From assembly GCA_020632255.1 (NCBI GenBank), contig JACKFX010000002.1, positions 82,905 through 146,904 on the forward strand: a stretch of 64,000 nucleotides of DNA, in the 5' to 3' direction. Below are positions 4,378 through 61,739 of this stretch, piece after piece. The notes under the pieces were generated by a model that was not told where the DNA came from, did no database searches, and saw only the letters and a program-made list of their open reading frames with translations. Position 1 is the first letter of the stretch. Every line of letters starts with the position of its first letter. Both the position numbers and the translations under genes were made by a program. This DNA is from Pseudomonadales bacterium. GTDB lineage: Bacteria; Patescibacteriota; Microgenomatia; UBA1400; PJMF01.

Positions 4378-4403
4378 ATATCCTTAGCAATATACTGCAA
4401 CCG

Positions 4404-5531: not shown

Positions 5532-5532
5532 A

Positions 5533-6087
5533 TTAGACAGTCATTAAATCTTTTTCTTTTGAAGCGTAGATCTCGTCTAACTTTGTATTATACTCTTGGA
5601 TCATTTCCTCGAGTGACTCAACGTCACGCTTGATGTCATCTTCACTAATACCATCATTACCTTCTTGAGACTCAATATCTTTTTTTGCGTCGGTACGAAT
5701 AGTGCGAAGCATTACCCGACCTGCCTCAATCTTCTTGGCGAGCGACTTGACCATCTCTTTGCGCTTCTCTTCTGTAAGAGGAGCAATGGCAATGCGAATA
5801 ATATCTCCATTAACAACTGGATTCAAGTTAAGATCTGCGGTAGCAATTGCTCTTTCGACAGCAACTAACAGTGACTTATCCCAAGGAGACACAACTAATA
5901 ACGTGGGGTCTGGTACCTGCACTGAGGCAACTTCCACAATCTTCATTTTGGCTCCGTAGGCATCAACCATGACAGGATCAAGAATTTGGGTAGTTGCTCG
6001 CCCAGTACGCAATGTCGCAATGTCTCGGCGAACATGCTCGAGAGCCTTGTCTAGTTTTTCAGTAATTTGAGTAAAAGAGTTTGACAT
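5533..6087 (-). CDS. frr: Ribosome recycling factor
   Basis: 184 aa. Full-length similarity to Frr (TLRTGRA..., LTEERRKE-like segment). Confidence 0.9.
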   Translation of the reverse strand: MSNSFTQITEKLDKALEHVRRDIATLRTGRATTQILDPVMVDAYGAKMKIVEVASVQVPDPTLLVVSPWDKSLLVAVERAIATADLNLNPVVNGDIIRIAIAPLTEEKRKEMVKSLAKKIEAGRVMLRTIRTDAKKDIESQEGNDGISEDDIKRDVESLEEMIQEYNTKLDEIYASKEKDLMTV

Positions 6088-6123
6088 TGATACTTTCTTG
6101 CTTGGACTGTGTGTCTTAATTAG

Positions 6124-7053: not shown

Positions 7054-7062
7054 GATGGGCAT

Positions 7063-7452
7063 TTAATTCTGGATTGGATCCAGTTGGATACTCATGTTAA
7101 CTGGAGGAAACACCAGCGTCTGATTACTAGGATCTGCTTCTGTTAGTTCATCCTGCAGGTTTTCAACGCGATCCCGAAGTGGATTATCTTTGACAATAGT
7201 TGGAGATGGAGAAGGAGATGCTTCTAGAACTTGTTCTACTTGTGGCTTTCTGCCAACAATCATTAAAACTAGTATCAGCAGCAGAAAGACCCCAAAAACT
7301 GAAGCTCCAATAATAAGCACCTTCTTTTTCTTCTTAGGCTGAGCCTGTTCATTCTCAACAGGAACCTGAGGCATCTGTGGAGTGGTGACATTCTGAAAGA
7401 GGACTTCTTCTTCGGCAAATTGTGTCTGGTTGGTATCGTACTGATGTATCAT
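7063..7452 (-). CDS. Single-pass membrane protein, Pro/Gln-rich; hypothetical
   Basis: 129 aa with a K-rich stretch followed by a TM helix (VLIIGASVFGVFLLLILVLMIV). Confidence 0.35.
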   Translation of the reverse strand: MIHQYDTNQTQFAEEEVLFQNVTTPQMPQVPVENEQAQPKKKKKVLIIGASVFGVFLLLILVLMIVGRKPQVEQVLEASPSPSPTIVKDNPLRDRVENLQDELTEADPSNQTLVFPPVNMSIQLDPIQN

Positions 7453-12241: not shown

Positions 12242-15200
12242 TTATGCTTCTTCGATAAACCCATAGGCTAGAAGTTTAGTTACCACAGCGGTCACTAGCG
12301 CAAGCCCTGGGAACCATTGGGTGATCATGGCTAACCATGAACCATCGACGTAACAGCCAGCATCTTTGAAGACGTAGAAGACTGCTACTACTCCAACGGT
12401 GATTGCTGCCACAACACCGAGCTTGAGTAAACCTGGAGTTCTGCGGAAGAACTCAAATGCAAGGATTGAGAGCAACTGCAATGCGAGCAAGATAAGTGGC
12501 AAGTAGTACTTCCAAGCTGAACAGCTGGTTGCACCGAGTACTTCACCTTCCTCAGCTGCCTCTTCTGAGCCAGATTTTTCTGAGCCTTCATCTGTAGCTT
12601 TTTCATCTTCCTGTGAAGATCCGTTGCTACGTGCGCCGAGAATTGCTCCTCGGATACTGTCGCCTTCAATGGTGTCAGTGACACCTAAGACTGTTTCAGT
12701 TCCAGTTGAAGGTTCTGGGCCAACTCGGAACGAGACCTTTGATTCTTTAAAGTTACCGGCATCATCCATAGCTTTAACTGAAAACTCCCAGACACCATCT
12801 TTAAGCTGATCAAGCTTGTGCTTGAAGGTATCGCGACCAACGGTTGCACCTCGAACAGTACCATCCTGATGCTTCCACTCGAGGACGTAACGAGTAACGT
12901 CACTGTCATCCTTTGGTCTTTCCCAAACACCATCTGCATCATCTGCAGTGATGTTTTCAACTCGAACGTTAAGTGGGTAGTCTGCAGGATCGGTGTTGTC
13001 GTAGCGAACATCTTTGACACCGAGATCAGAAACATTACCTACTGAGTCAACTGCTCGATAGTAGAGAATGTTTTGACGCTGTGATGGAGGCTTAATTGGA
13101 CCAGTGTAGGTTGTCCAGTTACCATCAGTAGTGGTATTCCATTGATACTCGATGTAATCAACATCATAGTTGTCAGATGCTGTCAGAGTAATTTCTGGTT
13201 CATAGAGTTTGTACCAACCGTTATTTCCATCTGGAGTTGCAGGATCGATTGTCAGTACGACCTCTGGAATAGTCTTGTCGTAGACAATCTTAATGGTATA
13301 GGTTGTCTCCACGTTGCCAGCGTTGTCGGTGGCGTGTGAAGTGATGTCGTAGATACCTTCTTCGACTGAAGCTTCAGGAATCTGATAGCTCCATGTGTCT
13401 GTACCGGTTGCAGGGACCTGTACTACGCCGGCCTGCCATTCCCCAGTGTCATGATTCCAGTAGACACTGTCAGTTGATCCAAATGGTGTGTACATGATCT
13501 CAAGATCGACTTTAGCTACACCTGAAGTTGCATCAGTTGCAGTTCCTTCAATCAGACCATCAAAACTGTTGGTTTCGACTTCTTCACCACTTTGAGCAGT
13601 GTTGAAGGTAGTAATCACGCTTGATGGATTGACTGTGTCATAAGTATAGGTAACAGCGTCACTCCATGCTCCAACATTACCAAGTGCATCATAGGCACGC
13701 ACTTGAATAGTGAAGTCTCCTTGTACATTTCCTGAAAGACCTTGATCACGATAGAGTCGTGATGCAGGGACCTCTCGATATGCTACCGTTGGAACACCGT
13801 TAACTAAGTACTCGTACTTAATCTCATACTTGTCCATACCGCTTGGGTCGGTCACTTCGGTCCACTCTGCACGGATGGTGTTTACGTTGAAGTACTCACC
13901 TGCAGTTGGAGCAGTGATTGTTGGGACGCCAACAGTATTATCTACCGTTACAGTAACCCAAGACCTTGAACCTGCATCTTTGTTGTCTGCAGCGTCTCGA
14001 GCCTCAAGCTTAATGGTGTAATCTCCACTTGGAAGTGATGAGGTATCCCAGCTTAGAAGTAACTTGTCTGTGAATGAAGTAGTATCATTAACAACTCCAG
14101 GACCTGCAACGGTTTGACCGATGCTGTTCTGAATCACAAACCAGTAGTGATGTGGATTATCGTCTGTGACCGTTCCACGAACATCTACCATACCATGAAC
14201 GATTCCTGCAGTTGGAGTTGTAACTTCGACATCAGGAGCCTGCCAGTCGGTAGTAATAGTACAAGTATTTGACCATCCTGAAGTGTTACCCAAAACGTCA
14301 ACAGATCGTACTTTAATATGATGTGCACCCTCATTAAGTGAACCACTGTACTGAGACTGGGTCAGGTTTGTTGACCAAACACCACGAGTGCCATTTGTCT
14401 TTGGATAGTCAATGTTGTACTCATAGTGATCAAATCCTGCTCCTGAATCTGTTGAGTCAGTCCAATCTACAGTGGTGTTATGAATGTTTGTTATTGCATT
14501 ACACTGTAAATCAGGTGAAACAAAACCTAAGACTTGTGGAGTAGTTGGAGCACTCTTATCGTAGTTAATTTCACAGAAATTACTCCACTCAGAAATTGGC
14601 TCACCTTCGTCAAACCTATTATTACTGTTAAGGTCTGAGTATGCTCTTACACGAGTTTTGTAAGTACCCTCGTTACCACCAAATGTTCCCCAACCTGCAT
14701 AAAAGTTGTCGTAATCATCAGTAAGTGTAGCTAGTACTGACATGTTGTCTGCATCAGCACTTGATGCTAAAGTTACTCTACTTGATTGACCCAGGATAAT
14801 GTCATTCAATCCACCAGGTCTCTGGTTGTGTCGAATATATTTAACATTACTTGCAGATGATGAAACATCAGTCCATGTAGCAGAGGTTTTAACACTGCCA
14901 TTAACTGAAGCTCCACAAACTAAGTCTACAGGGGTGTCAGTTAGTGAACTGCTGTTTTGGAGGTTAAATCCAAGCATTTCTGGAGTTTCTGGGTTAGCTT
15001 GAGTGTAACCTACTCCCAAATATGCTGCTGAGTTTCCATCTAGAGTAGTTTCCCAACATCTTTCAAACTCATCAGATGCAGAAGATTGATTTTCAACAAC
15101 CACTGCATCAGCATAACCTGATGGTGTTTGGTTATTAACATTGACGACATGTTGACCGAGCGCCGCAGGAGACTGGTTATAGCCAACCTTTTCGACACCA

Positions 15201-18187: not shown

Positions 18188-18371
18188 GCTTCCTTTTCTA
18201 AGTGCACACCTGCTACGCGTGCATTTTACTGTTAGGTACAAAGACAAGACAGACGAAAAAATCGCCCTTCAAATCCAATCCTACTATATCAGAATGGAAC
18301 TTGCAAGGATGAAACTCGACGGATATATCAATAAATACACACTACTTACACATCTGGGAAAACAAATATAC

Positions 18372-36282: not shown

Positions 36283-38526
36283 ATGTTTCGTAAACTTCTC
36301 ATCCCGTTTGTTATCATTGCTTCTATCTTTGTTAGCTATGTCTCATTATTTCATAACGACTCCGTTGAAAACGTTGCTCTCATTTCACAACTCTTTGGCA
36401 CACATGGCATCTGGATCTTAAACCTGCTGTTAGTAGTGATGGTTATCCCTATTTCACTTTCACTTATGGAAATCATTACCGGTGAGTTTGGCCTAGAACG
36501 CTTCAAACGAATTGCTGCTATCAGTATTGGTATGACTACGCTTAGTTTTGCTGCTTTGCAATTTATCGGAGCAATTGCAACGTCTTCTGCAGAAGGTGCC
36601 ACTGTCGTAGTAGAAGTCTTTCAACAAATTGCCCACTTTGCCACTCATGGTGAACTAGAACAATACGGCCTGGTGGGAATGCTCACGTCAGATGCTTCCG
36701 GTCCTTGGAACTCCAGCATCTTCCCACTGCTCATTATGATTATATGGTTAATCCGTCGAAAAACAGTTGGCATCGAAACAAAGCAACTTCATGTTCCGAT
36801 GATTTTTCAGTGGATTTTGTACGCTCAACAATTTTTCTTCGGTCTTGATTTACAGTACACGCTACTGGAAATTATCTTGATGGGTATTACTGGATCACTG
36901 TTTGTCTGGGGAATGATCAACTTCCTCGTTTCTATGTTTAGAGAAGCAGAGCAAGCAGAAGCCAAAGCAGCAGCAGAAATACCTGAAAAAGAAGAAGCCA
37001 CTAAGAAACAAAACTTCTATAGCCGTATGATTCATGGTATTTCCCACCTAACTTTTGAAGTCCTAACTTTCAATCCCTTTAACAAAAAAGTAGATACTGC
37101 AGATGAAAAAATTCAAAAAAAACGTGGTGGCTACGGAAACATCGGTCGCGGTTACGTTACCTTGAACGGGCTACAATTAACGCTAGCCATGACCGTTGCC
37201 ATGTTTGCCCTTGTCAGTGCAACTCAATTTCTTGCAGTCCAACTACGCATGAGTGATGCCGAAGCTGCGCTCTTTGGTACGGCTGGTCTTACGAGCGCTC
37301 CAGAAGCATTTGTTGCTCTTGCTGTCGGTCCCTATATTAACGCACTCCTCCTCGTAGGGAGCAACATCATTGATGGTTGGATGTCTGCTCTAGGACAAAC
37401 TGTCCTCTTAGGATATGCCGAAATCGCGAGTGGTGGTCATATTACCGCAATACCCTTGCATCCAGCTATTCGCTATCTCACTTTTCTCTCATGGACACAG
37501 GGCATGCTCGTTTGGGCTGCATTAACACTCTATGCTCACACCATTCACACTACTTTAAATAAAAAAATCATTTCCATTACCTCAATAGTTTTGCTGTCAG
37601 TTGCCATCTTGTACTACTTTGGTGGGGCATGGTTTAGTGCTCAAGCCTTGGGATATGGCGCTGAGTATGCTCAAGAGAGCTTTATCGTCAAATCGATTGG
37701 TAGCATTATTAACCTATTAACAATGATAAAAGCACAACAAATCGTATTGGTACTCAACATTATTGGCCTGGGAGCATTGGCTTTCTGGTGGAGTGGAATT
37801 CTGGAAAAACTCTCCTCACTTCTTCAAACAGAAGAGGACCAACGCATCTCTGGAGCAATCACTGAATTACATGGAAAGATTTCAAAGCATTTAGCACGAG
37901 AAAATCAACAAGTTATCATCGTTCTTGATACGAGTTCTGACATGAACGAGAAAACATTTTTTTTCAAAAACAAATGGATAGATCTTGTCTTCCGTCAAGC
38001 TGCTGCCTTTGGCCTAATTCTTGATGATGATGGCCATATTCCGGTCTATACGACCAGTGATGGTGCAGTTAAAAAGATCAAACACTTGCTCACCCAAAAA
38101 AATGCGGATACCTTTATTGAAAAATTCGTTGGCAGAAACACCGCAGGAAAAGTGAGCTACACTCCTGTCATTTCTGAAATATTTGCCGAATACAAAGATA
38201 CCCTCACAACTGAGCATGACCCAGTGCTCGTACTCTTTATCACTGCTGGAGGTGGCACCGATGCTGCAGAAGCAAACAAGCTTTTCACAAAAATGGAGTC
38301 CTATCCCATTTTTGTGCAGTTTATTGAAATTCACGGTGACAAACCACATAAAAATGCTCAAGTAGTCACCGGAATTGCGAATAAACCTGGAAAAATCATC
38401 GATAACTCTGGTATTTCTTCACTACCATTGTTTAGGTTAACCGACGCAAGTCAAATTGTCGAAGAAGTCCTCAACGAATACCCAGGCTACCTTGAAAAGG
38501 CTCAAAAAGCAGGAATTCTCGACTAA
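36283..38526 (+). CDS. Polytopic membrane protein with a C-terminal von Willebrand factor A-like domain
   Basis: 747 aa. About 12 hydrophobic helices in the first 480 aa. C-terminal IIVLDTSSDM (MIDAS-like), VLFITAGGGTD and IFVQFIEIHGD follow the vWA beta-strand pattern. Confidence 0.55.
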   Translation: MFRKLLIPFVIIASIFVSYVSLFHNDSVENVALISQLFGTHGIWILNLLLVVMVIPISLSLMEIITGEFGLERFKRIAAISIGMTTLSFAALQFIGAIATSSAEGATVVVEVFQQIAHFATHGELEQYGLVGMLTSDASGPWNSSIFPLLIMIIWLIRRKTVGIETKQLHVPMIFQWILYAQQFFFGLDLQYTLLEIILMGITGSLFVWGMINFLVSMFREAEQAEAKAAAEIPEKEEATKKQNFYSRMIHGISHLTFEVLTFNPFNKKVDTADEKIQKKRGGYGNIGRGYVTLNGLQLTLAMTVAMFALVSATQFLAVQLRMSDAEAALFGTAGLTSAPEAFVALAVGPYINALLLVGSNIIDGWMSALGQTVLLGYAEIASGGHITAIPLHPAIRYLTFLSWTQGMLVWAALTLYAHTIHTTLNKKIISITSIVLLSVAILYYFGGAWFSAQALGYGAEYAQESFIVKSIGSIINLLTMIKAQQIVLVLNIIGLGALAFWWSGILEKLSSLLQTEEDQRISGAITELHGKISKHLARENQQVIIVLDTSSDMNEKTFFFKNKWIDLVFRQAAAFGLILDDDGHIPVYTTSDGAVKKIKHLLTQKNADTFIEKFVGRNTAGKVSYTPVISEIFAEYKDTLTTEHDPVLVLFITAGGGTDAAEANKLFTKMESYPIFVQFIEIHGDKPHKNAQVVTGIANKPGKIIDNSGISSLPLFRLTDASQIVEEVLNEYPGYLEKAQKAGILD

Positions 38527-53525: not shown

Positions 53526-54926
53526 ATGGATACTCAGGTTTTTAAAAAACAGTACAAAACTCTTTTGCTAGTCATACTTTTTTTTGCGTTCTTCACTCGT
53601 GTGTATCGCCTTCACGTACCCGAGCGCTACATTTTTGATGAGGTGTACCACTCTGTAACTGCAAAACTCATTGCCCACAATGATCCACGTGCTTTTGAGT
53701 GGTGGAACCCAGCACCTGAACCTGATACAGCTGTCGATTGGTTACATCCTCCACTAGCAAAGTATACACAGGCAGCAAGTATGCTGATATTTGGAGAGAA
53801 CTCATTTGGTTGGAGAATTAGTTCTGCTCTCTTTGGTGTAGGAGTACTGTATCTTATTTCATTATTATCTTTACAACTTACAAAAAACCATGCTATTTCA
53901 CTCTTGGCAACCCTACTTGCTAGCCTTGATGGTTTGTTGTTAGTCATGTCTAGAATTGCTATGAATGATATTCACGTTACGTTTGCGATTTTGTTAACAG
54001 TAATTCTCTATCTCAAAACTAAGCCATTTGAAGAAAAGCGAAAACCTCTTGAATCACTAAAATGGTACCTGTTCACCGGCATCAGCGCTGGTCTTGCTAT
54101 GGGAACTAAATGGTCCGGTGTTTTTGTACTGGGAATACTGTATGTCTACGAGCTGCTCTCAATGCTTGAAGTTGTTGGAAACATATTACATGCCAAGAAC
54201 AAAAAAACAATACAGACTCACCTCAAACAGCTGATCCAACATGGAGCTATTGTTTTGTGCTGTTTTGTAATTCTCCCATTAACTGTCTACCTTTTGAGTT
54301 ATGCACAAATGTTTTTGCAAGGCAAAGACTTAAATCATCTCAGAGAACTTCATAAACAAATCTGGTGGTACCAAAGCAACTTAACTGCGACACACACCTA
54401 TCAATCTACTCCACTCGAATGGATTATTAACAAGAGACCAGTTTGGTTCCATGTGTCATATGGTTCAGGAAAGCGAGCAGACATCTATGCACATGGCAAC
54501 TCAATCCTTTTGTGGTCTGGGTTAGTCACAGTTGTTTTGACTTCTCTAAGCATCCTCAAAAGACTACTAAATAGCACAGATGCAAAAAAGCCACTTGAAA
54601 CAATTACACGGATAATACGAACACCACTCACCTACCTATTGATGGGATACTTTGCCACCTGGATCGTGTGGATTCGATCGCCTCGCATCATGTTCTTTTA
54701 TCACTACACTCCTGCAATTCCATTTTTAGTGATACTACTAGCCTACGGCTTATACAAACTCACCATGCTGCCGGAAAAATATCAACCACTGGCTCAAGCC
54801 ACTGCCCTTACCACAGTTAGTCTAGCAGCGCTCTATTTTATAGTTTTTTTTCCACACTGGACCGCACTCCCAATGCCAGCTCACTTCGTCAACTCAGTTT
54901 ACTTTATGTTTGAATCTTGGAAATAA
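53526..54926 (+). CDS. Dolichyl-phosphate-mannose protein mannosyltransferase-like GT-C (GT39/PMT family)
   Basis: DE motif YIFDEVYH in loop 1. More than 10 TM. PMT-like C-terminal region. Confidence 0.7.
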   Translation: MDTQVFKKQYKTLLLVILFFAFFTRVYRLHVPERYIFDEVYHSVTAKLIAHNDPRAFEWWNPAPEPDTAVDWLHPPLAKYTQAASMLIFGENSFGWRISSALFGVGVLYLISLLSLQLTKNHAISLLATLLASLDGLLLVMSRIAMNDIHVTFAILLTVILYLKTKPFEEKRKPLESLKWYLFTGISAGLAMGTKWSGVFVLGILYVYELLSMLEVVGNILHAKNKKTIQTHLKQLIQHGAIVLCCFVILPLTVYLLSYAQMFLQGKDLNHLRELHKQIWWYQSNLTATHTYQSTPLEWIINKRPVWFHVSYGSGKRADIYAHGNSILLWSGLVTVVLTSLSILKRLLNSTDAKKPLETITRIIRTPLTYLLMGYFATWIVWIRSPRIMFFYHYTPAIPFLVILLAYGLYKLTMLPEKYQPLAQATALTTVSLAALYFIVFFPHWTALPMPAHFVNSVYFMFESWK

Positions 54927-54929
54927 AAA

Positions 54930-57900
54930 CTACTCTTCATGGAGTACTGATAGAAACTCTAAATTCCTAATCTCGCCCATAACGTCTTTTATCAAAGTAA
55001 CCAAAAGTTCTACTTCATGCTGAGAAATGCTGAAAGATCGCGTGACAATTTTTCCTGATGTGTTTGGCTCTACAAACTCAAAAACTGTATCTGCCACTGT
55101 ATATGAAAAACTTTCATCAAGCTGTGCAAGCAGCACATAAAAAATGAGCTGACGTTTATACGCGCCTCGAATTTCTTCGGGTAAGTTTTGCTCACGAGCA
55201 GAAAGATGGGTAAGTGTCGTCTTTGTTTTTGCTTCAATATCATTTTCTGTTTTGGCCTTACCTGTCTTGTAATCTACCAGACGAACTGTGTGGAGCTGTG
55301 CATCTAGCAGATCAATTCTATCAATACGGCCAGTGAGTCGAATATGTGCATCCCCATCTTGAAGCGTAGTAGCTCCAAAAATGCCTCCAAAAAAACGCTC
55401 TGTGAAAAGTGGCTTAATAATGCGTCCTGACGAATACTCAAAATATGCTGACAATGCATCTCGACCTCTTTTCTGCCACTTAGAAAAATCTTTGTCGAGT
55501 AATGATTCACGTTTCAATGCGGAAGAAAAATACGCTTGAACACTTTCTAAATCAGCCGACTTCTGACTCTGAGGATCTGAATTTTTATACAAATACTCTA
55601 GTGCGGCATGCATTGCCGTACCAAAACTCATGTGAGGTTCTTTAGCACGCGGTACCCTCAACAAAAAATTGTACACAAACTCTTTGGGATCGTGTAAGTA
55701 TGCATTCAAAGCAGTCACTGAAAGTGAGAACTCATCGACCAGTGAAGAAAAGAAATCACGTTCGTCCTGAGAAATGGTAATCGCTTTCTCTGTCCCAAGT
55801 GTCAGATCGTTTTCAGCAGTTTTAATAAGCACTTGCAGATCACTCTCTGGAATGAGAGTAGTTTCTGCAGCGACTTCTGCCAAAAATAAACTCTGATTAA
55901 ATGATCGCACTGCTTTGCCTTCTACTTGGCTCTGTGAGTATGACAAAAATGTTTGTTTTTTCGCACGAGTAATTGCCACATAAAACAATCGTCTATCTTC
56001 CTGATTTTGTTCTTGTTTCGAAACATCAGTATGCTTCAATATCCCAGAGGGAAGTGGTAATGGATTTCGCTGACGTGCATTTCCCCATTTTTTGTCTCTG
56101 AGGGCCATCATAAAAACATACTCCCACTCTTGTCCCTTTGCTTTATGAATACTGCAAAGTGTGACTGCTTCTGTTTGAAGATGTAACATCTGAGTACGAA
56201 TGACAATGGCATGTGCCCGCAATGTTTTCACTGCTGTCAGAAAATCATCTATCGAGAAGTTACGATCGATCAGTACCCACTTTTTGATTTCCTCGAAGAG
56301 AGTACGGACAGCAAGAATATGGGACTTATTTGATTCATTTTTGACGAGCCAAGACGATAATCCTAAACCTTCGTCAGACACTAACAACTCAAACCAGGCA
56401 TGAAATTGTCTACTACTTGCTTGGGCTCGAAGAAACTCCAACTTTTCTCTAAATCTTTGTAAAGTCACGAAGCCATCTCTATCAAAGTTCTTTTGATCTG
56501 AAAATGTATCAACTTCTCTTGAGAGTACATCTATAAACGTGGTTTTTTCTTTGCTAGCAATGCGTGCAACATTGAGCACTGAAAGATACGGAAGCTGTAT
56601 CCAGTCATAGAGTAATACATCAAACAGCAAACGACTATCTTCTTCAGAGGACGTCTGAGCAATACATGAGATCACGTCAATAAGTTGGGTAACATACCGA
56701 TTATCAAAGACATTGCTTGAGTTATCTGTCTCAAATGGAATTCCCTTAGACGCAAGCAACTCTTGCAGCTCAGCAGCATCTGCATGATTTTTGTAGAGCA
56801 CAGCAATCTCACTAGCAGGCGTACCATTTTGGAGTAGTTTCCCAATTCTATCAGCGATAAAATAGTTCTCAATTACCGTGGTTGGAGCCTCACACAATTG
56901 CAGTGCATTCGACTCATGTTTCTGTGCGGCAGTAAGTTTTTTGGAGAGTGCGGCATGTAAAATTTCATCTTGTTGCGGAGCAACGCTTAGATTATCTGGT
57001 TGCACAACTGTGTTTTGTGAAATTGAGAGATGCGCCGCATCATAGAGTTGTTGAGGACACCGATAGCCTGTATCTAAGGTTATTACCTGTGCAAGAAGAT
57101 AGCGCTCCATAAAACCCAACATGTTTTCTACCGAAGCTCCTTGAAACCGAAAGATAGACTGATGAGGATCTCCCACAACAAAAAGATTTGCATGTTCTCC
57201 CCAAAATGATGCTAACAAGTCAACAACAGCATTTTGAGAAGCATTAGTATCTTGGTATTCATCAACCAAAATATACTGTAATAGTTCTTGGTACTCACCA
57301 AGCAGGTCATCATGCTGTGAAAAAGCCTCGGCAACCATAGTCACCATATCATCAAAATCAAACCGGTTCCGTTGACGTAGCTCGGCTTGATATTTTGTAT
57401 AAATTACGAGTAGTTCTTCTTGTTTAGCAAGATTTTTCTCTCTTTTTGCCCGTTCTGACTTCTTGAGTTCATCAGACTCTTGCTCTAAGAGTGATTTTTC
57501 GGCAACTAAAATACTTTCAAATTTTTCTGGAGTAATACCTTCACGTTTTAAGTCAGAGATGGCTCCAATTACATCTTTCAAATAATAGAGCACACGACCC
57601 ATTGGTCTGAGAAGCTCTAAATTAGAACTATCCAAAATTTCTTCAAATAAAGCATAGCGCTCAAGCTCGGTTAACGGTTGACTCTCTCGAGCCAAGTCAA
57701 AAAATTCAGGATGCTCACTAATGACCTCACCACAAAAGGCATGAAATGTCGAAATAGCAACTTGATACCCAGCTGGACCAATCATCGAGACGATACGATC
57801 TCGCATATTTTTTGCAGCCGCATCGGTAAAAGTAAGCGCCAGTATATTGTGTGGATCAACTTCTTGAGTAGCCAGAATGTTCGCAATTCGACAAGCCAGC

Positions 57901-58046
57901 ACGTGCGTCTTTCCTGTACCTGGGCCCGCAATAACCATGACTGGACCCTCTATGGCATCAACAGCTTTTCGTTGTGCTGGATTCAAAACTTTGAGAGCAG
58001 TAGTAAAGTTCTCTCTAAAAGAGTGTTTGGTTTCCATCGCTGTCAT
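54930..58046 (-). CDS. UvrD/PcrA-like superfamily-1 helicase fused to a C-terminal PD-(D/E)xK (RecB-type) nuclease
   Basis: 1038 aa. Walker A AGPGTGKTH. Further SF1 helicase motifs (DEYQDT, VGDPHQSIF). C-terminal RLVDYKTGK nuclease motif. Confidence 0.8.
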   Translation of the reverse strand: MTAMETKHSFRENFTTALKVLNPAQRKAVDAIEGPVMVIAGPGTGKTHVLACRIANILATQEVDPHNILALTFTDAAAKNMRDRIVSMIGPAGYQVAISTFHAFCGEVISEHPEFFDLARESQPLTELERYALFEEILDSSNLELLRPMGRVLYYLKDVIGAISDLKREGITPEKFESILVAEKSLLEQESDELKKSERAKREKNLAKQEELLVIYTKYQAELRQRNRFDFDDMVTMVAEAFSQHDDLLGEYQELLQYILVDEYQDTNASQNAVVDLLASFWGEHANLFVVGDPHQSIFRFQGASVENMLGFMERYLLAQVITLDTGYRCPQQLYDAAHLSISQNTVVQPDNLSVAPQQDEILHAALSKKLTAAQKHESNALQLCEAPTTVIENYFIADRIGKLLQNGTPASEIAVLYKNHADAAELQELLASKGIPFETDNSSNVFDNRYVTQLIDVISCIAQTSSEEDSRLLFDVLLYDWIQLPYLSVLNVARIASKEKTTFIDVLSREVDTFSDQKNFDRDGFVTLQRFREKLEFLRAQASSRQFHAWFELLVSDEGLGLSSWLVKNESNKSHILAVRTLFEEIKKWVLIDRNFSIDDFLTAVKTLRAHAIVIRTQMLHLQTEAVTLCSIHKAKGQEWEYVFMMALRDKKWGNARQRNPLPLPSGILKHTDVSKQEQNQEDRRLFYVAITRAKKQTFLSYSQSQVEGKAVRSFNQSLFLAEVAAETTLIPESDLQVLIKTAENDLTLGTEKAITISQDERDFFSSLVDEFSLSVTALNAYLHDPKEFVYNFLLRVPRAKEPHMSFGTAMHAALEYLYKNSDPQSQKSADLESVQAYFSSALKRESLLDKDFSKWQKRGRDALSAYFEYSSGRIIKPLFTERFFGGIFGATTLQDGDAHIRLTGRIDRIDLLDAQLHTVRLVDYKTGKAKTENDIEAKTKTTLTHLSAREQNLPEEIRGAYKRQLIFYVLLAQLDESFSYTVADTVFEFVEPNTSGKIVTRSFSISQHEVELLVTLIKDVMGEIRNLEFLSVLHEE

Positions 58047-59244
58047 CTTCTATGGCTTCTTCTAGTGCTTCAGAGCCACTTCCTAGAAATTCGAGGTGTT
58101 GAATAGTGGGAAGTGACCCACCAATTATTCCTTGTAAATCACCATACAGTGATGAGGTACTCATGACGACTTTTTCGAGCTCTTTTTCTCGTTTCGTCCA
58201 GAGTCGTTGGAATGAACGTTTCTCTGTTTCTAAGTCTTGCTTCATGGACATAAAAGCCATGACAATATTTTCAATTCTATTTTTGAATTGCGCCCCACTT
58301 AGGTACTGATAGAGGAGATCCATTTTCTCGTCTCTGCCAACCAGCGAGAGTTTAACTTTTGCGACTTCACTAATATGCAAACGAAGTGCAGATGCTAACG
58401 GAATAATGTGTGTATACCCAACAACCCAAACGCCATTCACCAATCCAAACCCTTCAACCCCTTCAGGCAGGACTCGTGTAACCAGTATGGCAGCTTCTGC
58501 CTGCACAATACCCTGGTCTTGTTTAAGCTTAGAAATCCATTTTTCACTAAAGGCTTTGGTGTTTTTTGACTCCCAAATAATCGTTCCATGGGCCGCACCA
58601 AACCTGGCATTCACTTTTTGAATCAGGTCTGCTCCCTTTATGCCCTGAGGAACATCACTCACTTCATCTTTTACGAACGTAGTTGAAAGCAACTCTTTAA
58701 GATCATCTTCTTGCACCTCCCCTTGGATCTGCATAGAGCCTTGTTCGGCTTTGCGCTTGAGATCATCTATCTGTTTGCGCATGATCTCCAACTGCTTATC
58801 TTTCTCTTGCAGTTTGAGACGTTGTTGCTCGGCTTCTTCTTTTTTGGTACTTTCAACAATCTTTTTACGCTCTTCATCAAGCTTGCGAGCCATCTCAAGC
58901 TCAATTTTCTTTTCTCGCTCTTCTAGCTCTCTGGACTTTTTGCGTAACTCCAACTCATTCTTTTCTGATTCCTCAAGTTTTTTGGAGTTCTCTTTAAGTT
59001 GTTCCTGCAGGTCTTTAAGTTCTTTGTCTTGTTTCTCAGCGGCCTTCTCTTGAGCTACTTGCCACAAGCGCTTCTTTTCTTTTGAAAGCTGATCATCAAG
59101 TTGCTTTTTGAGTGATGCTTCAAATTCCTGTTTTTGTTTCTCGAGCTGATGCTTGAGTTTGTGTTCAACCTGTTCAGAAAGAGCCTTAGAAAATGGAATC
59201 TGTGCTCCACAATCTGGACAAGTAATTGTCTGATCTGCTGCCAT
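58015..59244 (-). CDS. DUF2130-like protein: N-terminal zinc ribbon, long Lys/Glu coiled coil, C-terminal PD-(D/E)xK-like domain
   Basis: CPDCGAQIPF zinc-ribbon start. About 150 aa of EK-rich heptads. C-terminal D...GADLIQ...IIWESKNTK fits a D-(E)xK nuclease core. The 3' end overlaps the helicase gene by 32 nt. Confidence 0.55.
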   Translation of the reverse strand: MAADQTITCPDCGAQIPFSKALSEQVEHKLKHQLEKQKQEFEASLKKQLDDQLSKEKKRLWQVAQEKAAEKQDKELKDLQEQLKENSKKLEESEKNELELRKKSRELEEREKKIELEMARKLDEERKKIVESTKKEEAEQQRLKLQEKDKQLEIMRKQIDDLKRKAEQGSMQIQGEVQEDDLKELLSTTFVKDEVSDVPQGIKGADLIQKVNARFGAAHGTIIWESKNTKAFSEKWISKLKQDQGIVQAEAAILVTRVLPEGVEGFGLVNGVWVVGYTHIIPLASALRLHISEVAKVKLSLVGRDEKMDLLYQYLSGAQFKNRIENIVMAFMSMKQDLETEKRSFQRLWTKREKELEKVVMSTSSLYGDLQGIIGGSLPTIQHLEFLGSGSEALEEAIEDDSDGNQTLF

Positions 59245-59253
59245 AAGAATATT

Positions 59254-59541
59254 CTAATCGTTACTTTGTTGTTCGGATTGTAATCGAGAAATTTTTCTGT
59301 CTGTTTGTTGACGTCTCACCGAAATTGCATCATAGGATGAGGTTCCTTCTGAAGCATACTCTGCTCGAATCAGTTTCTGACGCTCAGTTCGAGCTTTCTC
59401 CATCCGTTGATTCATTTCCTGAGCACGTCTCTCACCAAAAGAGGTCGGGGCAGTTTGTTGTGGAGTTGAGCGCGAAGACCGATCGAAGAGACTTCGACCA
59501 GTGTCTTTGGCTTTTTGTACCATTGGACGTAAAAATTTCAT
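59254..59541 (-). CDS. Small highly charged protein; hypothetical (start MKFLRP)
   Basis: 95 aa, Arg/Gln/Ser-rich, predicted disordered. Lies 10 nt upstream of the DUF2130 gene. Confidence 0.35.
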   Translation of the reverse strand: MKFLRPMVQKAKDTGRSLFDRSSRSTPQQTAPTSFGERRAQEMNQRMEKARTERQKLIRAEYASEGTSSYDAISVRRQQTDRKISRLQSEQQSND

Positions 59542-59594
59542 TGCTTGCTTAGTATAGCAAAGAAGTTGGCAGAATCTAAGGAAAAATGAATATA

Positions 59595-59622
59595 TATGGC
59601 GGCGCGCATGCGCGCCGCCATA
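59595..59622. repeat. 28-bp perfect GC-rich palindrome TATGGCGGCGCGCA|TGCGCGCCGCCATA
   Basis: Perfect dyad. On the minus strand it is followed by AUAUAUUCAUUUUU, so it may act as a terminator or attenuator between the 71-aa ORF and the downstream genes. Shares ATGGCG...CGCCAT ends with the palindrome at 12193..12219. Confidence 0.6.
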
Positions 59623-59645
59623 CAACAAACTCAAATTAAGATTAT

Positions 59646-59861
59646 CTATCCTCCCCGCATAGATCGCACTCGATCATTTGGGTCGGCAGGATCACCTTCT
59701 GGTATTGATGGCATACCACCTTCCACCCAGCCAAACGAGCGAAGGATAGCAAAAAAAGGAATGGAGACGACACGAAGAATGCGTCGCCACTCCCATACCC
59801 CAGTACGAACTTCGCGAGCCTCGTACCGAGAAATTACAATCGTTCTACGAAGTCTAATCAT
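59646..59861 (-). CDS. Small membrane protein (71 aa); hypothetical
   Basis: AGGAGG lies 8 nt upstream of the ATG. One hydrophobic helix (VVSIPFFAILRSFGWV). Local GC is higher than the surrounding sequence. Confidence 0.45.
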   Translation of the reverse strand: MIRLRRTIVISRYEAREVRTGVWEWRRILRVVSIPFFAILRSFGWVEGGMPSIPEGDPADPNDRVRSMRGG

Positions 59862-59962
59862 TACGGTTTCCTCCTACAATTGTGCATATGAGTTGTTGTT
59901 AAAGAGACCCATATTTTACTACAAAATGTTGCATTTTAATACTATTATGATATAATTAGACC

Positions 59963-60379
59963 ATGTCAACACAAACTCAAAATCCAGAGCAGCTAAGAAT
60001 TTTACTTGCAGAAGATAATCCAGATTGGGTTGACACTATTACAGCCTATGCTAAAGAATCTGGGGCAGTTGTAGTTGCTATTGCAACCACATTTTCTGAG
60101 GCGTTAGAAGAAATTAAACACGTTAAAGATAAACATATCGATCTAGTTATCCTCGGGGGCAGTCTGGATAAGCAGTTAAAACATACTAATTCAGATCTTC
60201 TACTCTTAATCCTTGCGCTCAATGAAGTTGATGCAACAATTCCTACCATTGCACTATCTGGAAATGATCGTGGTACAGAGCGCGCTACGATAAATGTTGG
60301 AAAAACTCTCACATTTGCTCAAGACTTCACATCAGCACTCAATCAAATAATGCTGGGAACTTCTACTACAGAGAACTAA
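59963..60379 (+). CDS. Receiver-like (CheY fold) single-domain protein lacking the phospho-acceptor Asp
   Basis: 138 aa. Beta1 ILLAEDN acidic pair is present. The expected DLVILD position reads DLVILGG, so the D57 equivalent is Gly. Ser and Lys are conserved further on. Confidence 0.45.
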   Translation: MSTQTQNPEQLRILLAEDNPDWVDTITAYAKESGAVVVAIATTFSEALEEIKHVKDKHIDLVILGGSLDKQLKHTNSDLLLLILALNEVDATIPTIALSGNDRGTERATINVGKTLTFAQDFTSALNQIMLGTSTTEN

Positions 60380-61739
60380 CCATCGTACTCACCAAAAAGT
60401 ACGCAAAGAAAGCAAATGCGAGCGCCATCATGGCAACGCGTAATATGCCTGCATGTAGTCGTTTTCGTAATGCTCCCTTATTGAGAAAATAGATAAACAC
60501 AAACGACATCATCATAGCCGCGGCATTGAGGACTGCGGAAAGTGTCAGTAATACTCGTGGTTCTTGAATACCAAAGAGATAAATCACTACACCTAATCCA
60601 ATCTGTGCCCACAAAGCCACATAAAAGCCAAGGGACATATTTACTTTCTTACCCTTCTTATAACCAAGCAACAACACATTTTCTGAAATAATGCGCGCTG
60701 AAGACTCTAGTACACCTAACTGGGTTGAAAACAACATCAATGCGGCAATCAACAAGAAAAACATTGAGACAGTGCTTCCCATTACCCGGCTAATAACATC
60801 AGCTTCCCCATACAAAAAGCTCAAACCCGAAGACACCTCCGAGCCATACACGGTGGCTCGGGCCAAAACTGACATCACCACAATGGTTATCAGTCCCAAA
60901 GACCAAAACACAATTGCATGCTCCATGCATACGAGCCGCCACCACTGCTGCCAACGGTTCCAATTTTTTGTAGTGTCTGCAAAATCAAAACCATCAATAC
61001 TTGCTGGTTTACTTTCTTTCGAAAACAAGGCTCCAACTTTGGCAGCAGACTTACCCATACCAAAGCCTTTCTCTTTTATGTAGTACGATTGAGCCAAATT
61101 TAGATTTCCCCCCGCACCGGCATACGCAAATGCACCTAAGAAACTGGCAATTGAGACACCGCTTGGGAATAACCACCACCCATCACCGTGACCAGCAAGT
61201 CCCCAGATCATCTCTTGCCAATGCTCTGCACGAGCTAACCAAAGTGCTATACCAAACAGCAGGGGTAATCCAATCAGAATAACCCCCTTCTGAAAACGTT
61301 CCATCGTGGTGTACAACGATGAGCCAACAGACAAAATCACACCAGTGAAAACAAGTAAAAATATTGCAACCATTTTTTCTGGTAAGAACGGAAATAAATG
61401 GGTTAATAACTCCGATGCAGCTGACGAAAATCCAGGTATAGACCATGGAATAAAAGTCGAAATGATGTACCAAAGAGTAATGAGTACACTCATTCGGCGA
61501 AAGCCAAGAAACACACTTTCTCCTTTAGCCAATGTGTAACGCATCACCTCAGTATTTAAGACATACTGCAAAGAAACACCTAGCAATGCCCCCCAGAGTA
61601 ACCCCAATCCATAGTTTGCAGCCAAATATGGCCAAAGAATTAATTCTCCACTTCCAAGAGCTAAACCTAGCAAAATAAAAGAAGGGCCAATTGTTTTGGC
61701 AAGTGACGGAGGTTTAGAGAGTGATTTTCCTTGCTTCAT
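60366..61739 (-). CDS. NRAMP-related membrane transporter lacking the canonical DPGN motif
   Basis: 457 aa, 11-12 TM. N-terminal GPSFILLGLALGSGELILWPYLAANYGLGLLW aligns to the Nramp GP.F...DPGN...G..LLW segment, but LGSGE stands where DPGN is expected. Confidence 0.45.
   Translation of the reverse strand: MKQGKSLSKPPSLAKTIGPSFILLGLALGSGELILWPYLAANYGLGLLWGALLGVSLQYVLNTEVMRYTLAKGESVFLGFRRMSVLITLWYIISTFIPWSIPGFSSAASELLTHLFPFLPEKMVAIFLLVFTGVILSVGSSLYTTMERFQKGVILIGLPLLFGIALWLARAEHWQEMIWGLAGHGDGWWLFPSGVSIASFLGAFAYAGAGGNLNLAQSYYIKEKGFGMGKSAAKVGALFSKESKPASIDGFDFADTTKNWNRWQQWWRLVCMEHAIVFWSLGLITIVVMSVLARATVYGSEVSSGLSFLYGEADVISRVMGSTVSMFFLLIAALMLFSTQLGVLESSARIISENVLLLGYKKGKKVNMSLGFYVALWAQIGLGVVIYLFGIQEPRVLLTLSAVLNAAAMMMSFVFIYFLNKGALRKRLHAGILRVAMMALAFAFFAYFLVSTMVSSL

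What the first reader, a model, noticed from the sequence alone, without database searches (positions are those of the whole stretch)
54930..59861. Operon coupling a DUF2130-type Zn-ribbon/coiled-coil/PD-(D/E)xK protein with a UvrD-like helicase-nuclease and two small proteins
On the minus strand the order is: a 71-aa TM protein with a perfect AGGAGG RBS, the 28-bp GC palindrome, a 95-aa highly charged protein, the 409-aa DUF2130-like protein (10-nt gap), and the 1038-aa SF1 helicase with C-terminal RecB-type nuclease (32-nt overlap). The region is transcribed divergently from a receiver-like gene lacking its phospho-acceptor. The helicase-nuclease alone would pass as an AddA/PcrA-type repair enzyme. 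Its translational coupling to a second nuclease-fold protein that has a zinc ribbon and a 150-aa coiled coil (an RmuC-like architecture) is not a standard repair operon. It could be an uncharacterised recombination or anti-phage module.
Basis: inference. Interest (0 to 1): 0.55.

Follow-up and report, generated by a model that had tools for sequence, protein, structure and literature searches.

The report
Coiled-coil nuclease plus helicase-nuclease operon
A tiny-genome (Patescibacteria/CPR) bacterium carries a conserved three-gene operon joining an uncharacterised coiled-coil DNA-cutting enzyme (DUF2130) to a helicase-nuclease; it probably processes broken or foreign DNA, and relatives of the DUF2130 enzyme elsewhere sit in anti-phage gene clusters.

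Summary
The genes are real and the domain calls hold: a 1038-aa UvrD/PcrA-type helicase with a C-terminal RecB-type nuclease, a 409-aa DUF2130 protein and a 95-aa basic protein. All lie on the minus strand and are tightly packed.

- The operon has three genes. A conserved GC hairpin and promoter separate the 71-aa ORF from it.
- The "Zn ribbon" is a single CxxC knuckle, more like a Rad50 hook.
- DUF2130 shows no similarity to RmuC.

DUF2130 followed by the helicase is conserved, but only in one CPR sub-lineage: 18 of 80 species loci, where the whole block including unrelated glycosyltransferase genes is syntenic. Helicase orthologues elsewhere keep the downstream block but have RecA or UDG upstream instead of DUF2130. 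The helicase therefore looks like a stable core gene.

Across the wider DUF2130 family the usual neighbours are OLD/GajA-type and AAA_13 ABC ATPases, DNA methyltransferases and type I R-M genes. One plasmid carries DUF2130-GajA-GajB. No library or paper searched here lists DUF2130 as a defence gene.

Best reading (0.45): a DNA-break processing module used for genome maintenance in this lineage. A dedicated anti-phage role is a serious rival (0.3). This is a new variant of a known kind, of moderate interest.

The parts
54930..58046 (-). SF1A UvrD/PcrA-type helicase fused to a C-terminal RecB-family PD-(D/E)xK nuclease. It is 1038 aa, or 1035 aa from the alternative ATG at 58037.
   Evidence: Pfam gives UvrD-helicase, UvrD_C and PDDEXK_1. 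The best solved relatives are PcrA (1e-56), UvrD, Rep, then AdnB, AddA and RecB. These motifs are invariant in 20 orthologues: Walker A GPGTGKT 41-47, DExQD 262-266, TR 693-694, and nuclease motifs GRxDR 906-910, YKTG 926-929 (D925 in at least 90% of the 20) and QLxFY 966-970. Motif positions were read from the sequence. I saw no Cys cluster suggesting an Fe-S centre.
58015..59244 (-). DUF2130 protein (409 aa). It has an N-terminal CPxCG knuckle (C9, C12), a ~150-aa helix (18-169), a PD-(D/E)xK nuclease domain (about 170-300), a C-terminal helical bundle, and an acidic tail ending in TLF.
   Evidence: PF09903 matches at 1.6e-60. AlphaFold models are; the C-terminal domain has pLDDT 84.7 and an alpha-beta-beta-beta-alpha-beta core. 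E179, D206, E225 and K227 are invariant. Foldseek finds only weak hits, but they are to PD-(D/E)xK nuclease domains.
59254..59541 (-). First gene of the operon: a 95-aa basic, helical small protein ('p95'; MKFLRP...TSFGEKRAQEMN...ERQKL.RAEYAS).
   Evidence: An HMM built from homologues finds it directly upstream of DUF2130 in most of 23 other loci (3-4 genes away in three). A marginal match (7e-5) falls on a 53-aa ORF abutting the helicase start in a lineage without DUF2130. No Pfam, NCBIfam, PADLOC or PHROG hit.
59551..59579 (-). Promoter-like element: TTAGAT, 17 nt, then an extended -10 TGcTATACT. The p95 ATG lies 9 nt after the -10, so the transcript would be nearly leaderless.
   Evidence: Read from the sequence. 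The -10 region CAACTTCTTTGCTATACT is nearly identical in window, L001 and L002 (one mismatch in L001). The simple consensus scan did not call it, so this is an inference.
59595..59622 (-). A 28-bp perfect GC-rich palindrome (stem GGCGGCGCG) followed by a T-rich run. It is a terminator-like insulator between the 71-aa ORF and the operon.
   Evidence: The stem sequence is conserved with a variable loop in L001 and L002. In L002 it is present although no p71 homologue was found there. No Rfam match.
59646..59861 (-). A 71-aa ORF with an AGGAGG RBS. It is a separate upstream unit of doubtful significance and not part of the operon.
   Evidence: It is conserved only in L001 (50% identity). No family hit.
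59963..60379 (+). Divergent receiver-like gene (138 aa) with Gly at the phospho-acceptor position (DLVILG).
   Evidence: Response_reg scores 22.6 bits, below the 30.2 cut-off. It is conserved in L001 and L002 at 34-37% identity. Context only.

Best explanation
The locus is a vertically inherited, chromosomal three-gene operon (p95, DUF2130, helicase-nuclease) of a Microgenomates-type Patescibacteria lineage. I read it as a DNA-break processing module used mainly for genome maintenance.

Shown:
- Both large proteins carry intact catalytic motifs.
- The genes overlap or abut.
- The arrangement has persisted across a deep clade.

Inferred mechanism:
1. DUF2130 forms a parallel coiled-coil dimer.
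2. The two N-terminal CPxCG knuckles of the dimer jointly hold one zinc ion, as in a Rad50 hook.
3. The two PD-(D/E)xK heads cut or open DNA at breaks, hairpins or stalled forks.
4. The SF1A helicase-nuclease then loads on the end, unwinds 3'->5' and resects, as AddA, AdnB and RecB do, producing substrate for RecA.
5. The small basic p95 is probably an adaptor or regulator.

The same chemistry would also degrade foreign DNA, so a secondary protective role is not excluded.
For: Organism and context:
- The window lies in a housekeeping CPR chromosome region containing MetRS, SecD and envelope glycosyltransferases.
- The window proteins are identical to proteins from public uncultured-bacterium assemblies, and their closest named relatives are Pace-/Woesebacteria.

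Conservation of the arrangement:
- The helicase lies downstream on the same strand, within 3 genes, in 18 of 80 species loci. It is immediately downstream in 14.
- The DUF2130 stop and helicase start overlap, or are at most 9 nt apart, in 10 of 13 called pairs.
- Identities of DUF2130, helicase and PMT to the window co-vary across 13 loci (Spearman 0.63-0.74). This fits co-inheritance.
- At least 23 DUF2130/helicase hit pairs share a contig length, including contigs of 5.8-27 kb.

Helicase as a core gene:
- Helicase orthologues (>7700 homologues, ~1010-1060 aa, same architecture) sit beside RecA, RNase Y and UDG where DUF2130 is absent, and keep PMT-UbiA-GT4 downstream.

Other CPR lineages:
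- DUF2130 neighbours there include LigA, topoisomerase, RecJ-like DHH, DnaG and RecQ.

Catalytic residues and fold:
- Catalytic residues are invariant and the nuclease fold is modelled at high confidence.
- A single conserved CxxC precedes the long helix. A weak Rad50 profile match starts at residue 8, next to the CxxC.
Against: - No experiment exists for any DUF2130 protein. Four papers mention the family and none gives a function.
- The adjacency is lineage-restricted and the whole block, including unrelated genes, is syntenic. Linkage may therefore reflect low rearrangement rather than function.
- Family-wide, DUF2130's commonest neighbours are defence-type ABC ATPases, methyltransferases and R-M genes. 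It also occurs on plasmids and viral contigs. This fits an accessory or defence gene better than a repair gene.
- Only 444 of 185,579 GTDB species matched the CPR-type motifs, which suggests a patchy distribution.
- Dimerisation, zinc binding and any DUF2130-helicase contact are untested inferences.
Confidence: 0.45

Rival explanations
1. The operon is a dedicated anti-phage or anti-plasmid module. DUF2130 is the nuclease effector and the UvrD-like helicase-nuclease plays the partner role that GajB plays for GajA, or that ABC ATPases play in other DUF2130 loci. Foreign DNA is cut and then processively degraded.
For: Defence-gene neighbours of DUF2130:
- L071: HsdR-HsdM-HsdS-Old-DUF2130.
- L069: HsdS-Old-DUF2130-PDC-S13.
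- L064: DUF2130-GajA (1.5e-135).
- L020: MTase-PDC-S06-DUF2130.
- Aliarcobacter plasmid: DUF2130-GajA-GajB-MTase-RhuM.
- Chryseobacterium plasmid: WYL-DUF2130-type I R-M.

Metagenome survey of 90 immediate neighbours: AAA_15 in 9, AAA_21 in 9, AAA_13 in 6, OLD-like TOPRIM in 4, SIR2_2 in 2. Methyltransferases lie at +2/+3 in 6 loci, and SNF2 or SF1-REase helicases occur nearby.

Architectural analogue: Shield ShdA, a coiled-coil plus PD-(D/E)xK nuclease that confers phage defence and is often inserted in type I R-M loci (PMC10270631, PMC11090510).
Against: - The window has no methyltransferase, ABC ATPase or other defence gene nearby.
- The block is stably inherited over a deep clade together with envelope genes. 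This is unlike typical defence-gene turnover.
- The helicase is an orthologue of a CPR-wide gene linked to RecA and UDG.
- PADLOC has no model matching DUF2130, and the helicase's GajB hits (250 bits) are weaker than its PcrA hit (310 bits).
- None of the 80 diverse metagenome loci pairs DUF2130 with this helicase type.
Confidence: 0.3
2. There is no functional coupling. The adjacency is inherited gene order in compact genomes. The helicase-nuclease is a stand-alone AddA/AdnB-like repair enzyme, and DUF2130 (with p95) does something unrelated.
For: - Sixty of 80 species loci lack the helicase near DUF2130.
- Orthologous helicases function without an upstream DUF2130.
- p95-DUF2130 persists without the helicase in L009-L011.
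- Unrelated PMT, UbiA and GT4 genes are just as syntenic.
- Very short intergenic spacers are general here. For example, the PMT gene and the helicase gene end 3 nt apart.
Against: - Same-strand overlap, with one conserved promoter and no internal terminator called between the three genes.
- DUF2130 recurrently sits beside some DNA NTPase in independent lineages: UvrD-type, RecQ, GajA/GajB, SNF2, ABC ATPases.
Confidence: 0.2
3. The DUF2130 gene is a remnant of a plasmid or phage maintenance or anti-restriction cassette that became fixed next to the helicase.
For: - DUF2130 lies next to ParA, a relaxase and an ArdC-like gene on rhizobial conjugative plasmids, and next to ParA in Helicobacter prophages.
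- It is found on 44 plasmids, 7 phage records and 31 IMG/VR contigs.
Against: - No mobile-element genes were seen in or near the locus.
- Composition is even, with GC 0.40-0.42 across the region.
- CPR copies are 46-79% identical and inherited with their flanks.
Confidence: 0.05

Closest known systems
Shield ShdA (Pseudomonas anti-phage system; RmuC-domain nuclease)
   Same: A long coiled coil is followed by a PD-(D/E)xK nuclease head. ShdA is a single-gene effector, often inserted in type I R-M loci and sometimes with accessory partners (PMC10270631, PMC11090510). DUF2130 is found in type I R-M loci in L069, L071 and a Chryseobacterium plasmid.
   Different: ShdA has an N-terminal TM helix and an RmuC domain. 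DUF2130 has a CPxCG knuckle instead of a TM segment, no PF02646 hit, and no detectable similarity to E. coli RmuC by hhalign.
Gabija (GajA OLD-family ATPase-nuclease + GajB UvrD-like helicase)
   Same: It pairs a nuclease with a UvrD-family helicase. One plasmid encodes DUF2130-GajA-GajB in a single same-strand, tightly spaced cluster. The window helicase matches GajB models across their length.
   Different: The window has no GajA, ABC ATPase or TOPRIM gene. The helicase's best GajB-model score (250 bits, PDLC00114) is below its PcrA-model score and far below the 897 bits a true GajB reaches on its own model. The helicase also carries a RecB nuclease domain; GajB is not known to have one (my knowledge).
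AddA / AdnB / RecB helicase-nucleases (DSB resection)
   Same: An SF1A UvrD-like motor is fused to a C-terminal RecB-family nuclease with GRxDR, DYKTG and QxxxY motifs. Orthologues lie beside recA.
   Different: NCBIfam scores are far below every equivalog cut-off (AddA 130 vs 708; RecB 124 vs 696). The motor is closest to PcrA/UvrD. No AddB, AdnA or RecC-like partner is present in the window.
Rad50/SbcC zinc hook with Mre11/SbcD nuclease
   Same: A CPxCG motif adjoins a very long coiled coil, with one CxxC per chain implying intermolecular zinc binding. A weak Rad50 profile match starts at the motif. Several DUF2130 neighbours elsewhere are SMC_N/Rad50-like ABC ATPases.
   Different: DUF2130 has no ABC ATPase head. 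The CxxC is at the N-terminus of a single helix, not at the apex of an antiparallel arm. The nuclease is PD-(D/E)xK, not a calcineurin-like phosphoesterase.
RmuC (E. coli recombination-limiting protein)
   Same: The general layout matches: an N-terminal segment, a coiled coil, then a PD-(D/E)xK domain. Both are listed as PD-(D/E)XK superfamily families, DUF2130 with function unknown and RmuC with molecular function unknown but implicated in recombination (PMC3424549).
   Different: No sequence or profile similarity was found. They are separate Pfam families.

Membership tests
DUF2130 (PF09903 / COG4487) | Match to the Pfam model above its gathering score | tested here: met
   205 bits against a cut-off of 26.7, E 1.6e-60, model positions 2-241 of 255.
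PD-(D/E)xK nuclease superfamily | An alpha-beta-beta-beta-alpha-beta core with D at beta2 and (D/E)xK in beta3 | tested here: met
   The AlphaFold C-terminal domain model has pLDDT 84.7. Helix 2-25, strands 30-33, 43-47 and 56-63, helix 71-83 and strand 87-92 place E179, D206 and E225-x-K227 canonically. These residues are invariant. Foldseek's best hits include PD-(D/E)xK domains (DdmD, SPARDA, McrC, Bax1, PaqCI), but only at E >= 0.014. The fold is predicted, not solved.
Zinc ribbon | Two CxxC (or CxxH) knuckles in one chain giving four ligands | tested here: not met
   Only C9 and C12 are conserved. Two CxxC motifs occur in 0 of 120 and 2 of 150 homologues.
RmuC (PF02646) | Sequence or profile similarity to the RmuC domain | tested here: not met
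   No Pfam RmuC hit at E <= 0.01. hhalign of A1 against E. coli RmuC gives probability 0.1%. The template was a single sequence, so sensitivity was limited.
Shield (ShdA) | An N-terminal transmembrane helix plus an RmuC domain | tested here: not met
   The N-terminus is a CPxCG hairpin followed by a charged helix. There is no RmuC similarity. PADLOC returned no Shield hit, but I did not confirm that this PADLOC version holds a ShdA model.
Gabija | A GajA (ABC ATPase + TOPRIM) gene adjacent to the GajB helicase | tested here: not met
   No such ORF lies between 52000 and 64000. The helicase gives only generic GajB-model hits.
PcrA / UvrD / Rep | NCBIfam equivalog score above cut-off; a ~650-750 aa protein without a nuclease domain | tested here: not met
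   PcrA 310 vs 911, Rep 258 vs 951, UvrD 230 vs 1144. An extra PDDEXK_1 domain occupies residues 774-1030.
AddAB / RecBCD / AdnAB | Helicase-nuclease subunit scoring above the equivalog cut-off | tested here: not met
   AddA 130 vs 708; RecB 124 vs 696.
AddAB / RecBCD / AdnAB | A second subunit (AddB, RecC/RecD or AdnA) encoded in the genome | not testable with these tools
   None is in the 64-kb window. The rest of the genome is not available.
SF1A helicase (active) | Walker A, DExx, and motifs III-VI conserved | tested here: met
   GPGTGKT, DExQD and TR in motif VI are invariant in 20 orthologues.
Rad50/SbcC | An ABC ATPase head split by an antiparallel coiled coil with an apical CxxC hook | tested here: not met
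   No ATPase domain is present. The CxxC is N-terminal to a single helix. Only the hook-like motif is shared.

The most novel reading that the evidence does not exclude
DUF2130 is the nuclease arm of a previously unrecognised, widespread family of two-part DNA-targeting systems. A zinc-clasped coiled-coil PD-(D/E)xK dimer works with an interchangeable NTPase partner: an OLD/GajA-type or AAA_13/SMC-like ABC ATPase, an SNF2 helicase, or, in this CPR lineage, the cell's own UvrD/RecB-type helicase-nuclease. The CPR operon would then be a defence effector domesticated onto a core repair enzyme, blurring repair and immunity in minimal genomes.
Probability: 0.25. Interest if true: 0.7.

Novelty: new variant of a known kind. 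Interest (0 to 1): 0.5.

Why it matters
DUF2130 is a large family. About 4,100 clusters at 50% identity matched the nuclease domain. The family has intact nuclease catalytic residues, and the four papers found that mention it assign it no function.

This work gives three testable leads.
1. A stable operon with a helicase-nuclease exists in CPR bacteria. Their DNA repair and phage defence cannot easily be studied by culture, so a working handle would be useful.
2. Across bacteria, plasmids and metagenomes, DUF2130 associates strongly with OLD/GajA and AAA_13 ABC ATPases and with R-M genes. The defence library used here does not hold DUF2130. This may flag a new defence component.
3. The single CxxC plus long coiled coil suggests a Rad50-hook-like zinc clasp attached to a restriction-type nuclease.

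If the coupling is real, it shows how minimal genomes combine a core resection enzyme with an accessory endonuclease.

Tried and rejected
- **RmuC homology:** no Pfam hit and a negative hhalign result. I dropped the 'RmuC-like' label except as a loose analogy.
- **Gabija membership:** no GajA in the window.
- **Apparent Rosetta-stone fusion:** L005 seemed to encode DUF2130 fused to the helicase as a 1189-aa ORF. It is an artefact of a 100-N gap.
- **RecQ as a recurrent neighbour:** the many ~600-aa neighbours turned out to be unrelated (DbpA-type helicase, GlmS, BipA, an ABC transporter, DnaG, DHH). Only Peregrinibacteria and L124 have RecQ nearby.
- **PDB sequence search with the DUF2130 profile:** only coiled-coil noise.
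- **First full-length AlphaFold model:** the nuclease N-terminal part was poor (pLDDT 38-50 over residues 170-220). I replaced it with a domain model from a deeper alignment.
- **Negative searches:** Rfam on 54500-60500 found nothing. PHROGs found nothing for DUF2130, p95 or p71.
- **Second PcrA in the window:** the 747-aa ORF at 36283-38526 is a vWA/TerF-like protein, not a helicase.
- **CPR recombination literature:** the search returned nothing specific.
- **C-terminal tail as a clamp-binding (QxSLF) or SSB-tip (D[IL]PF) mimic:** it is present in only part of the family (50/120 close and 9/150 distant homologues for an xL[F/L/W]-type motif within 3 residues of the C-terminus). I kept it as a side note only.

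Full report
**1. What is in the sequence**

On the minus strand, the ORF listing finds four ORFs:
- 54930-58046, 1038 aa.
- 58015-59244, 409 aa.
- 59254-59634. The conserved start is the ATG at 59541, which gives 95 aa.
- 59646-59861, 71 aa.

The 409-aa and 1038-aa genes overlap by 32 nt. The overlap is 23 nt if the second ATG at 58037 is used, as in the public annotation P0271. The 95-aa gene ends 9 nt before the 409-aa gene.

Domain calls:
- Pfam calls UvrD-helicase, UvrD_C and PDDEXK_1 in the large protein and DUF2130 (E 1.6e-60) in the 409-aa protein.
- The two small proteins match nothing in Pfam, NCBIfam, PADLOC or PHROGs.

The window is an ordinary chromosomal stretch of a Patescibacteria (CPR) genome:
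- It has even GC near 0.41.
- It encodes MetRS, SecD, an ABC exporter, and MraY-like, UbiA-like and PMT-like envelope genes.
- The proteins are 100% identical to proteins from public uncultured-bacterium assemblies. One of these is named Woesebacteria, and the next-closest named relatives are Pace-/Woesebacteria. Some are mislabelled 'Pseudomonadales'.

**2. Transcription unit**

The 28-bp perfect palindrome lies at 59595-59622. It is unique in the window and none is expected by chance. On the minus strand a T-rich run follows it, so it scores as a terminator.

Downstream of the palindrome lie TTAGAT, a 17-nt spacer, and an extended -10 (TGcTATACT). The ATG of the 95-aa gene is 9 nt after the -10.

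Three elements are conserved in the two closest relatives, L001 and L002:
- the stem sequence GGCGGCGCG/CGCGCCGCC, with a variable loop;
- the T-run (in L002; most of it is deleted in L001);
- the -10 block.

These relatives are 79% identical in DUF2130. In L002 the hairpin is present although no homologue of the 71-aa ORF was found there.

I therefore read the operon as three genes: p95, DUF2130 and the helicase-nuclease. It would be expressed from a near-leaderless transcript. The 71-aa ORF is a separate unit of doubtful significance. It is conserved only in L001 at 50% identity, and its hydrophobic stretch contains Arg residues. Rfam finds nothing in the region.

**3. The DUF2130 protein**

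Twenty-five CPR homologues were aligned. Invariant features include C9-P10-x-C12, E179, D206, the block W224-E-S-K-N-T229, and many C-terminal positions.

With plasmid-borne and distant members at 28-43% identity, E179, D193, D206, E225 and K227 remain invariant. C9 and C12 stay at 90% or more.

AlphaFold results:
- The full-length model shows a short N-terminal hairpin and then one helix from residue 18 to 169.
- A domain model from an 80-sequence alignment reaches pLDDT 84.7, and above 90 through the core.
- That model has the alpha-beta-beta-beta-alpha-beta topology of restriction-type nucleases. D206 lies at the start of strand 2, E225-x-K227 lies in strand 3, and E179 lies in the first helix.

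Foldseek against the PDB gives no strong hit (best E 0.014). Many of the top matches are PD-(D/E)xK nuclease domains: DdmD, the SPARDA nuclease domain, McrC, Bax1, PaqCI, MspJI and FAN1. Steczkiewicz et al. 2012 already list DUF2130/COG4487 as a PD-(D/E)XK family of unknown function (PMC3424549).

- *Zinc ribbon.* There is one CxxC, not two. This holds in 118/120 and 136/150 homologues, and a second CxxC is almost never present. A single chain therefore cannot form a four-Cys ribbon. The CPxCG motif followed by a very long helix resembles the Rad50 hook, where two chains share one zinc (hook motif from my knowledge). A weak Rad50 profile match begins at residue 8. This resemblance is an inference, not a demonstrated property.
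- *RmuC-like.* There is no RmuC Pfam hit, and an hhalign comparison with E. coli RmuC is negative.

**4. The helicase-nuclease**

- In 20 orthologues, Walker A (GPGTGKT 41-47), DExQD (262-266) and TR of motif VI (693-694) are invariant.
- So are the nuclease motifs GRxDR (906-910), YKTG (926-929; D925 in at least 90%) and QLxFY (966-970).
- The motor is closest to PcrA, UvrD and Rep. AdnB, AddA and RecB follow.
- It scores far below every NCBIfam equivalog cut-off.
- It belongs to a very large CPR family of ~1010-1060-aa proteins with the same architecture, at a 43-47% identity plateau.

**5. Is the adjacency conserved?**

A scan of one genome per GTDB species found 444 species encoding a CPR-type DUF2130, and 80 loci were examined.

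- The window-type helicase lies downstream on the same strand, within three genes, in 18 loci. It is immediately downstream in 14, counting L005, whose apparent fusion is a 100-N gap.
- In 10 of 13 called pairs the genes overlap or are at most 9 nt apart.
- The p95 family is found upstream of DUF2130 in 23 loci, directly upstream in most. These include L009-L011, where the helicase is not adjacent.
- At least 23 DUF2130 and helicase hits from metagenomes share the same longest-contig length, including contigs of 5.8-27 kb. The pair is therefore probably common in this clade.

There are two important limits.

- The same loci also conserve the convergent PMT, UbiA-like and GT4 genes (13 loci). 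Identities of DUF2130, helicase and PMT co-vary (Spearman 0.63-0.74). The whole block is inherited together.
- Helicase orthologues from other CPR lineages keep PMT-UbiA-GT4 downstream. Upstream they have RecA and RNase Y (divergent), UDG, or small ORFs; a third lineage keeps neither block.

The helicase thus behaves as a stable core gene with a repair-flavoured neighbourhood. The p95-DUF2130 pair is present or absent in front of it.

The other 60 loci come from Peregrini-, Gracili-, Parcu-, Magasanik-, Uhr-, Morani- and Nealsonbacteria, among others. They show unrelated neighbours, some from DNA metabolism: LigA, topoisomerase, RecJ-like DHH, DnaG, and RecQ plus Fic.

**6. The wider family points towards defence**

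Several CPR loci place DUF2130 inside clear defence clusters:
- L071: HsdR-HsdM-HsdS-Old-DUF2130.
- L069: HsdS-Old-DUF2130-PDC-S13.
- L064: DUF2130-GajA.
- L020: MTase-PDC-S06(AAA_13)-DUF2130.

On plasmids (44 records):
- An Aliarcobacter plasmid encodes DUF2130-GajA-GajB-MTase-RhuM in one tightly spaced same-strand cluster.
- A Chryseobacterium plasmid has WYL-DUF2130-type I R-M.
- Rhizobial conjugative plasmids place DUF2130 near ParA, a relaxase and an ArdC-like gene, or near an AAA ATPase, PIN and SIR2.

A metagenome scan with a diverse alignment gave 80 further loci at 36-69% identity. Among 90 immediate neighbours, the commonest Pfam families are:

| Family | Neighbours |
|---|---|
| AAA_15 | 9 |
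| AAA_21 | 9 |
| AAA_13 | 6 |
| SMC_N | 6 |
| AAA_23 | 5 |
| OLD-like_TOPRIM | 4 |
| PDDEXK_1 | 3 |
| DUF2813 | 3 |
| SIR2_2 | 2 |

Other features of that set:
- Methyltransferases lie at +2 or +3 in six loci.
- SNF2 helicases, an SF1 helicase-REase fusion and an AddB-like 1165-aa protein also occur.
- None of these loci holds a homologue of the window helicase.

DUF2130 is also found on 31 IMG/VR contigs and 7 Helicobacter prophage records.

PADLOC-DB v2 has no model that recognises DUF2130. The four papers that mention the family do not discuss defence. The nearest characterised analogue in architecture is Shield ShdA, which has a TM helix, a coiled coil and an RmuC nuclease. It confers phage defence and is often embedded in type I R-M loci (PMC10270631; PMC11090510). 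DUF2130 fails ShdA's defining features.

**7. Interpretation**

The mechanism I consider most likely is shared by the repair and defence readings:
1. A dimeric, possibly zinc-clasped, coiled-coil endonuclease cuts or opens DNA.
2. The SF1A helicase-nuclease unwinds and resects from the resulting end.

For this particular locus the context favours genome maintenance (confidence 0.45):
- a housekeeping neighbourhood;
- deep vertical co-inheritance;
- helicase orthologues beside RecA and UDG;
- no methyltransferase or ATPase sensor nearby.

The family-level evidence keeps a dedicated defence role as a strong rival (0.3). Simple inherited synteny without functional coupling cannot be excluded (0.2).

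Two points could not be tested here: whether the helicase is the genome's only SF1A helicase, and whether DUF2130 contacts it.

**8. Novelty**

The parts are known kinds: a Pfam DUF already assigned to the PD-(D/E)xK clan, and a UvrD/RecB-type helicase-nuclease. What appears not to have been described, in the libraries and papers searched, is:
- the conserved p95-DUF2130-helicase operon in CPR;
- the hook-like single CxxC;
- the family-wide link to OLD/GajA and AAA_13 ATPases.

I rate it a new variant of a known kind, of moderate interest (0.5).

Noticed in passing
window 58018-58060 (C-terminal tail of DUF2130); homologues P0001-P0270: The protein ends in an acidic stretch plus TLF. Among close homologues, 50/120 have an xL[F/L/W]-type motif at or within 3 residues of the C-terminus, often preceded by Q or P. 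Several distant homologues end in D[IL]PF, like the SSB C-terminal tip. It could be a docking tail for a clamp- or SSB-binding partner.
   Followed up: partly
window 59551-59622; L001 7671-7695; L002 7615-7645: A GC hairpin (stem GGCGGCGCG), a T-run (retained in L002, largely deleted in L001) and an extended -10 TGCTATACT are conserved upstream of the small p95 gene. The ATG lies 9 nt after the -10, which implies a nearly leaderless mRNA.
   Followed up: partly
window 59963-60379 (+): A receiver-like 138-aa protein has 'DLVILG' in place of the phospho-acceptor Asp. Its Response_reg hit is below Pfam's cut-off. It is conserved divergently in L001 and L002.
   Followed up: partly
L101-L180 (metagenome loci), L064, L069, L071, L020, L088: DUF2130 genes are very often directly next to OLD/GajA-type or AAA_13/SMC-like ABC ATPases, frequently followed by a DNA methyltransferase. 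This may be an unlisted two-gene defence arrangement. PADLOC has no DUF2130 model.
   Followed up: partly
L081-L084 (Peregrinibacteria), 3250-7188: RecQ, Fic and DUF2130 lie on one strand. The Fic and DUF2130 genes overlap by 28 nt.
   Followed up: no
L005 9100-9300: An apparent 1189-aa DUF2130-helicase fusion ORF is an artefact of a 100-N masked or scaffold gap.
   Followed up: yes
L089, L090, L093; L181-L211: DUF2130 is carried on rhizobial conjugative plasmids next to ParA, a relaxase and an ArdC-like gene. It is also on Helicobacter prophages next to ParA and on 31 IMG/VR viral contigs.
   Followed up: partly
L098/L099 4840-5001: A 53-aa charged ORF ends at the first base of the helicase start codon in a lineage without DUF2130. 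It is a marginal match (E 7e-5) to the p95 family profile. p95 may belong with the helicase rather than with DUF2130.
   Followed up: partly
window 12242-18247 (-): A 2001-aa ORF carries beta-helix, Big_13/Big_3_3 and fn3 domains. It is probably a giant surface protein.
   Followed up: no
window 36283-38526 (+): A 747-aa protein has a C-terminal vWA-TerF-like domain and an unassigned N-terminal 540 aa.
   Followed up: no
record titles of L003-L008, L014, L045, L061 etc.: Many loci whose DUF2130 and flanking genes match those of named Patescibacteria loci come from public MAGs titled 'Pseudomonadales', 'Gammaproteobacteria' or 'Bdellovibrionales'. These look like naming errors in the source records.
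   Followed up: no
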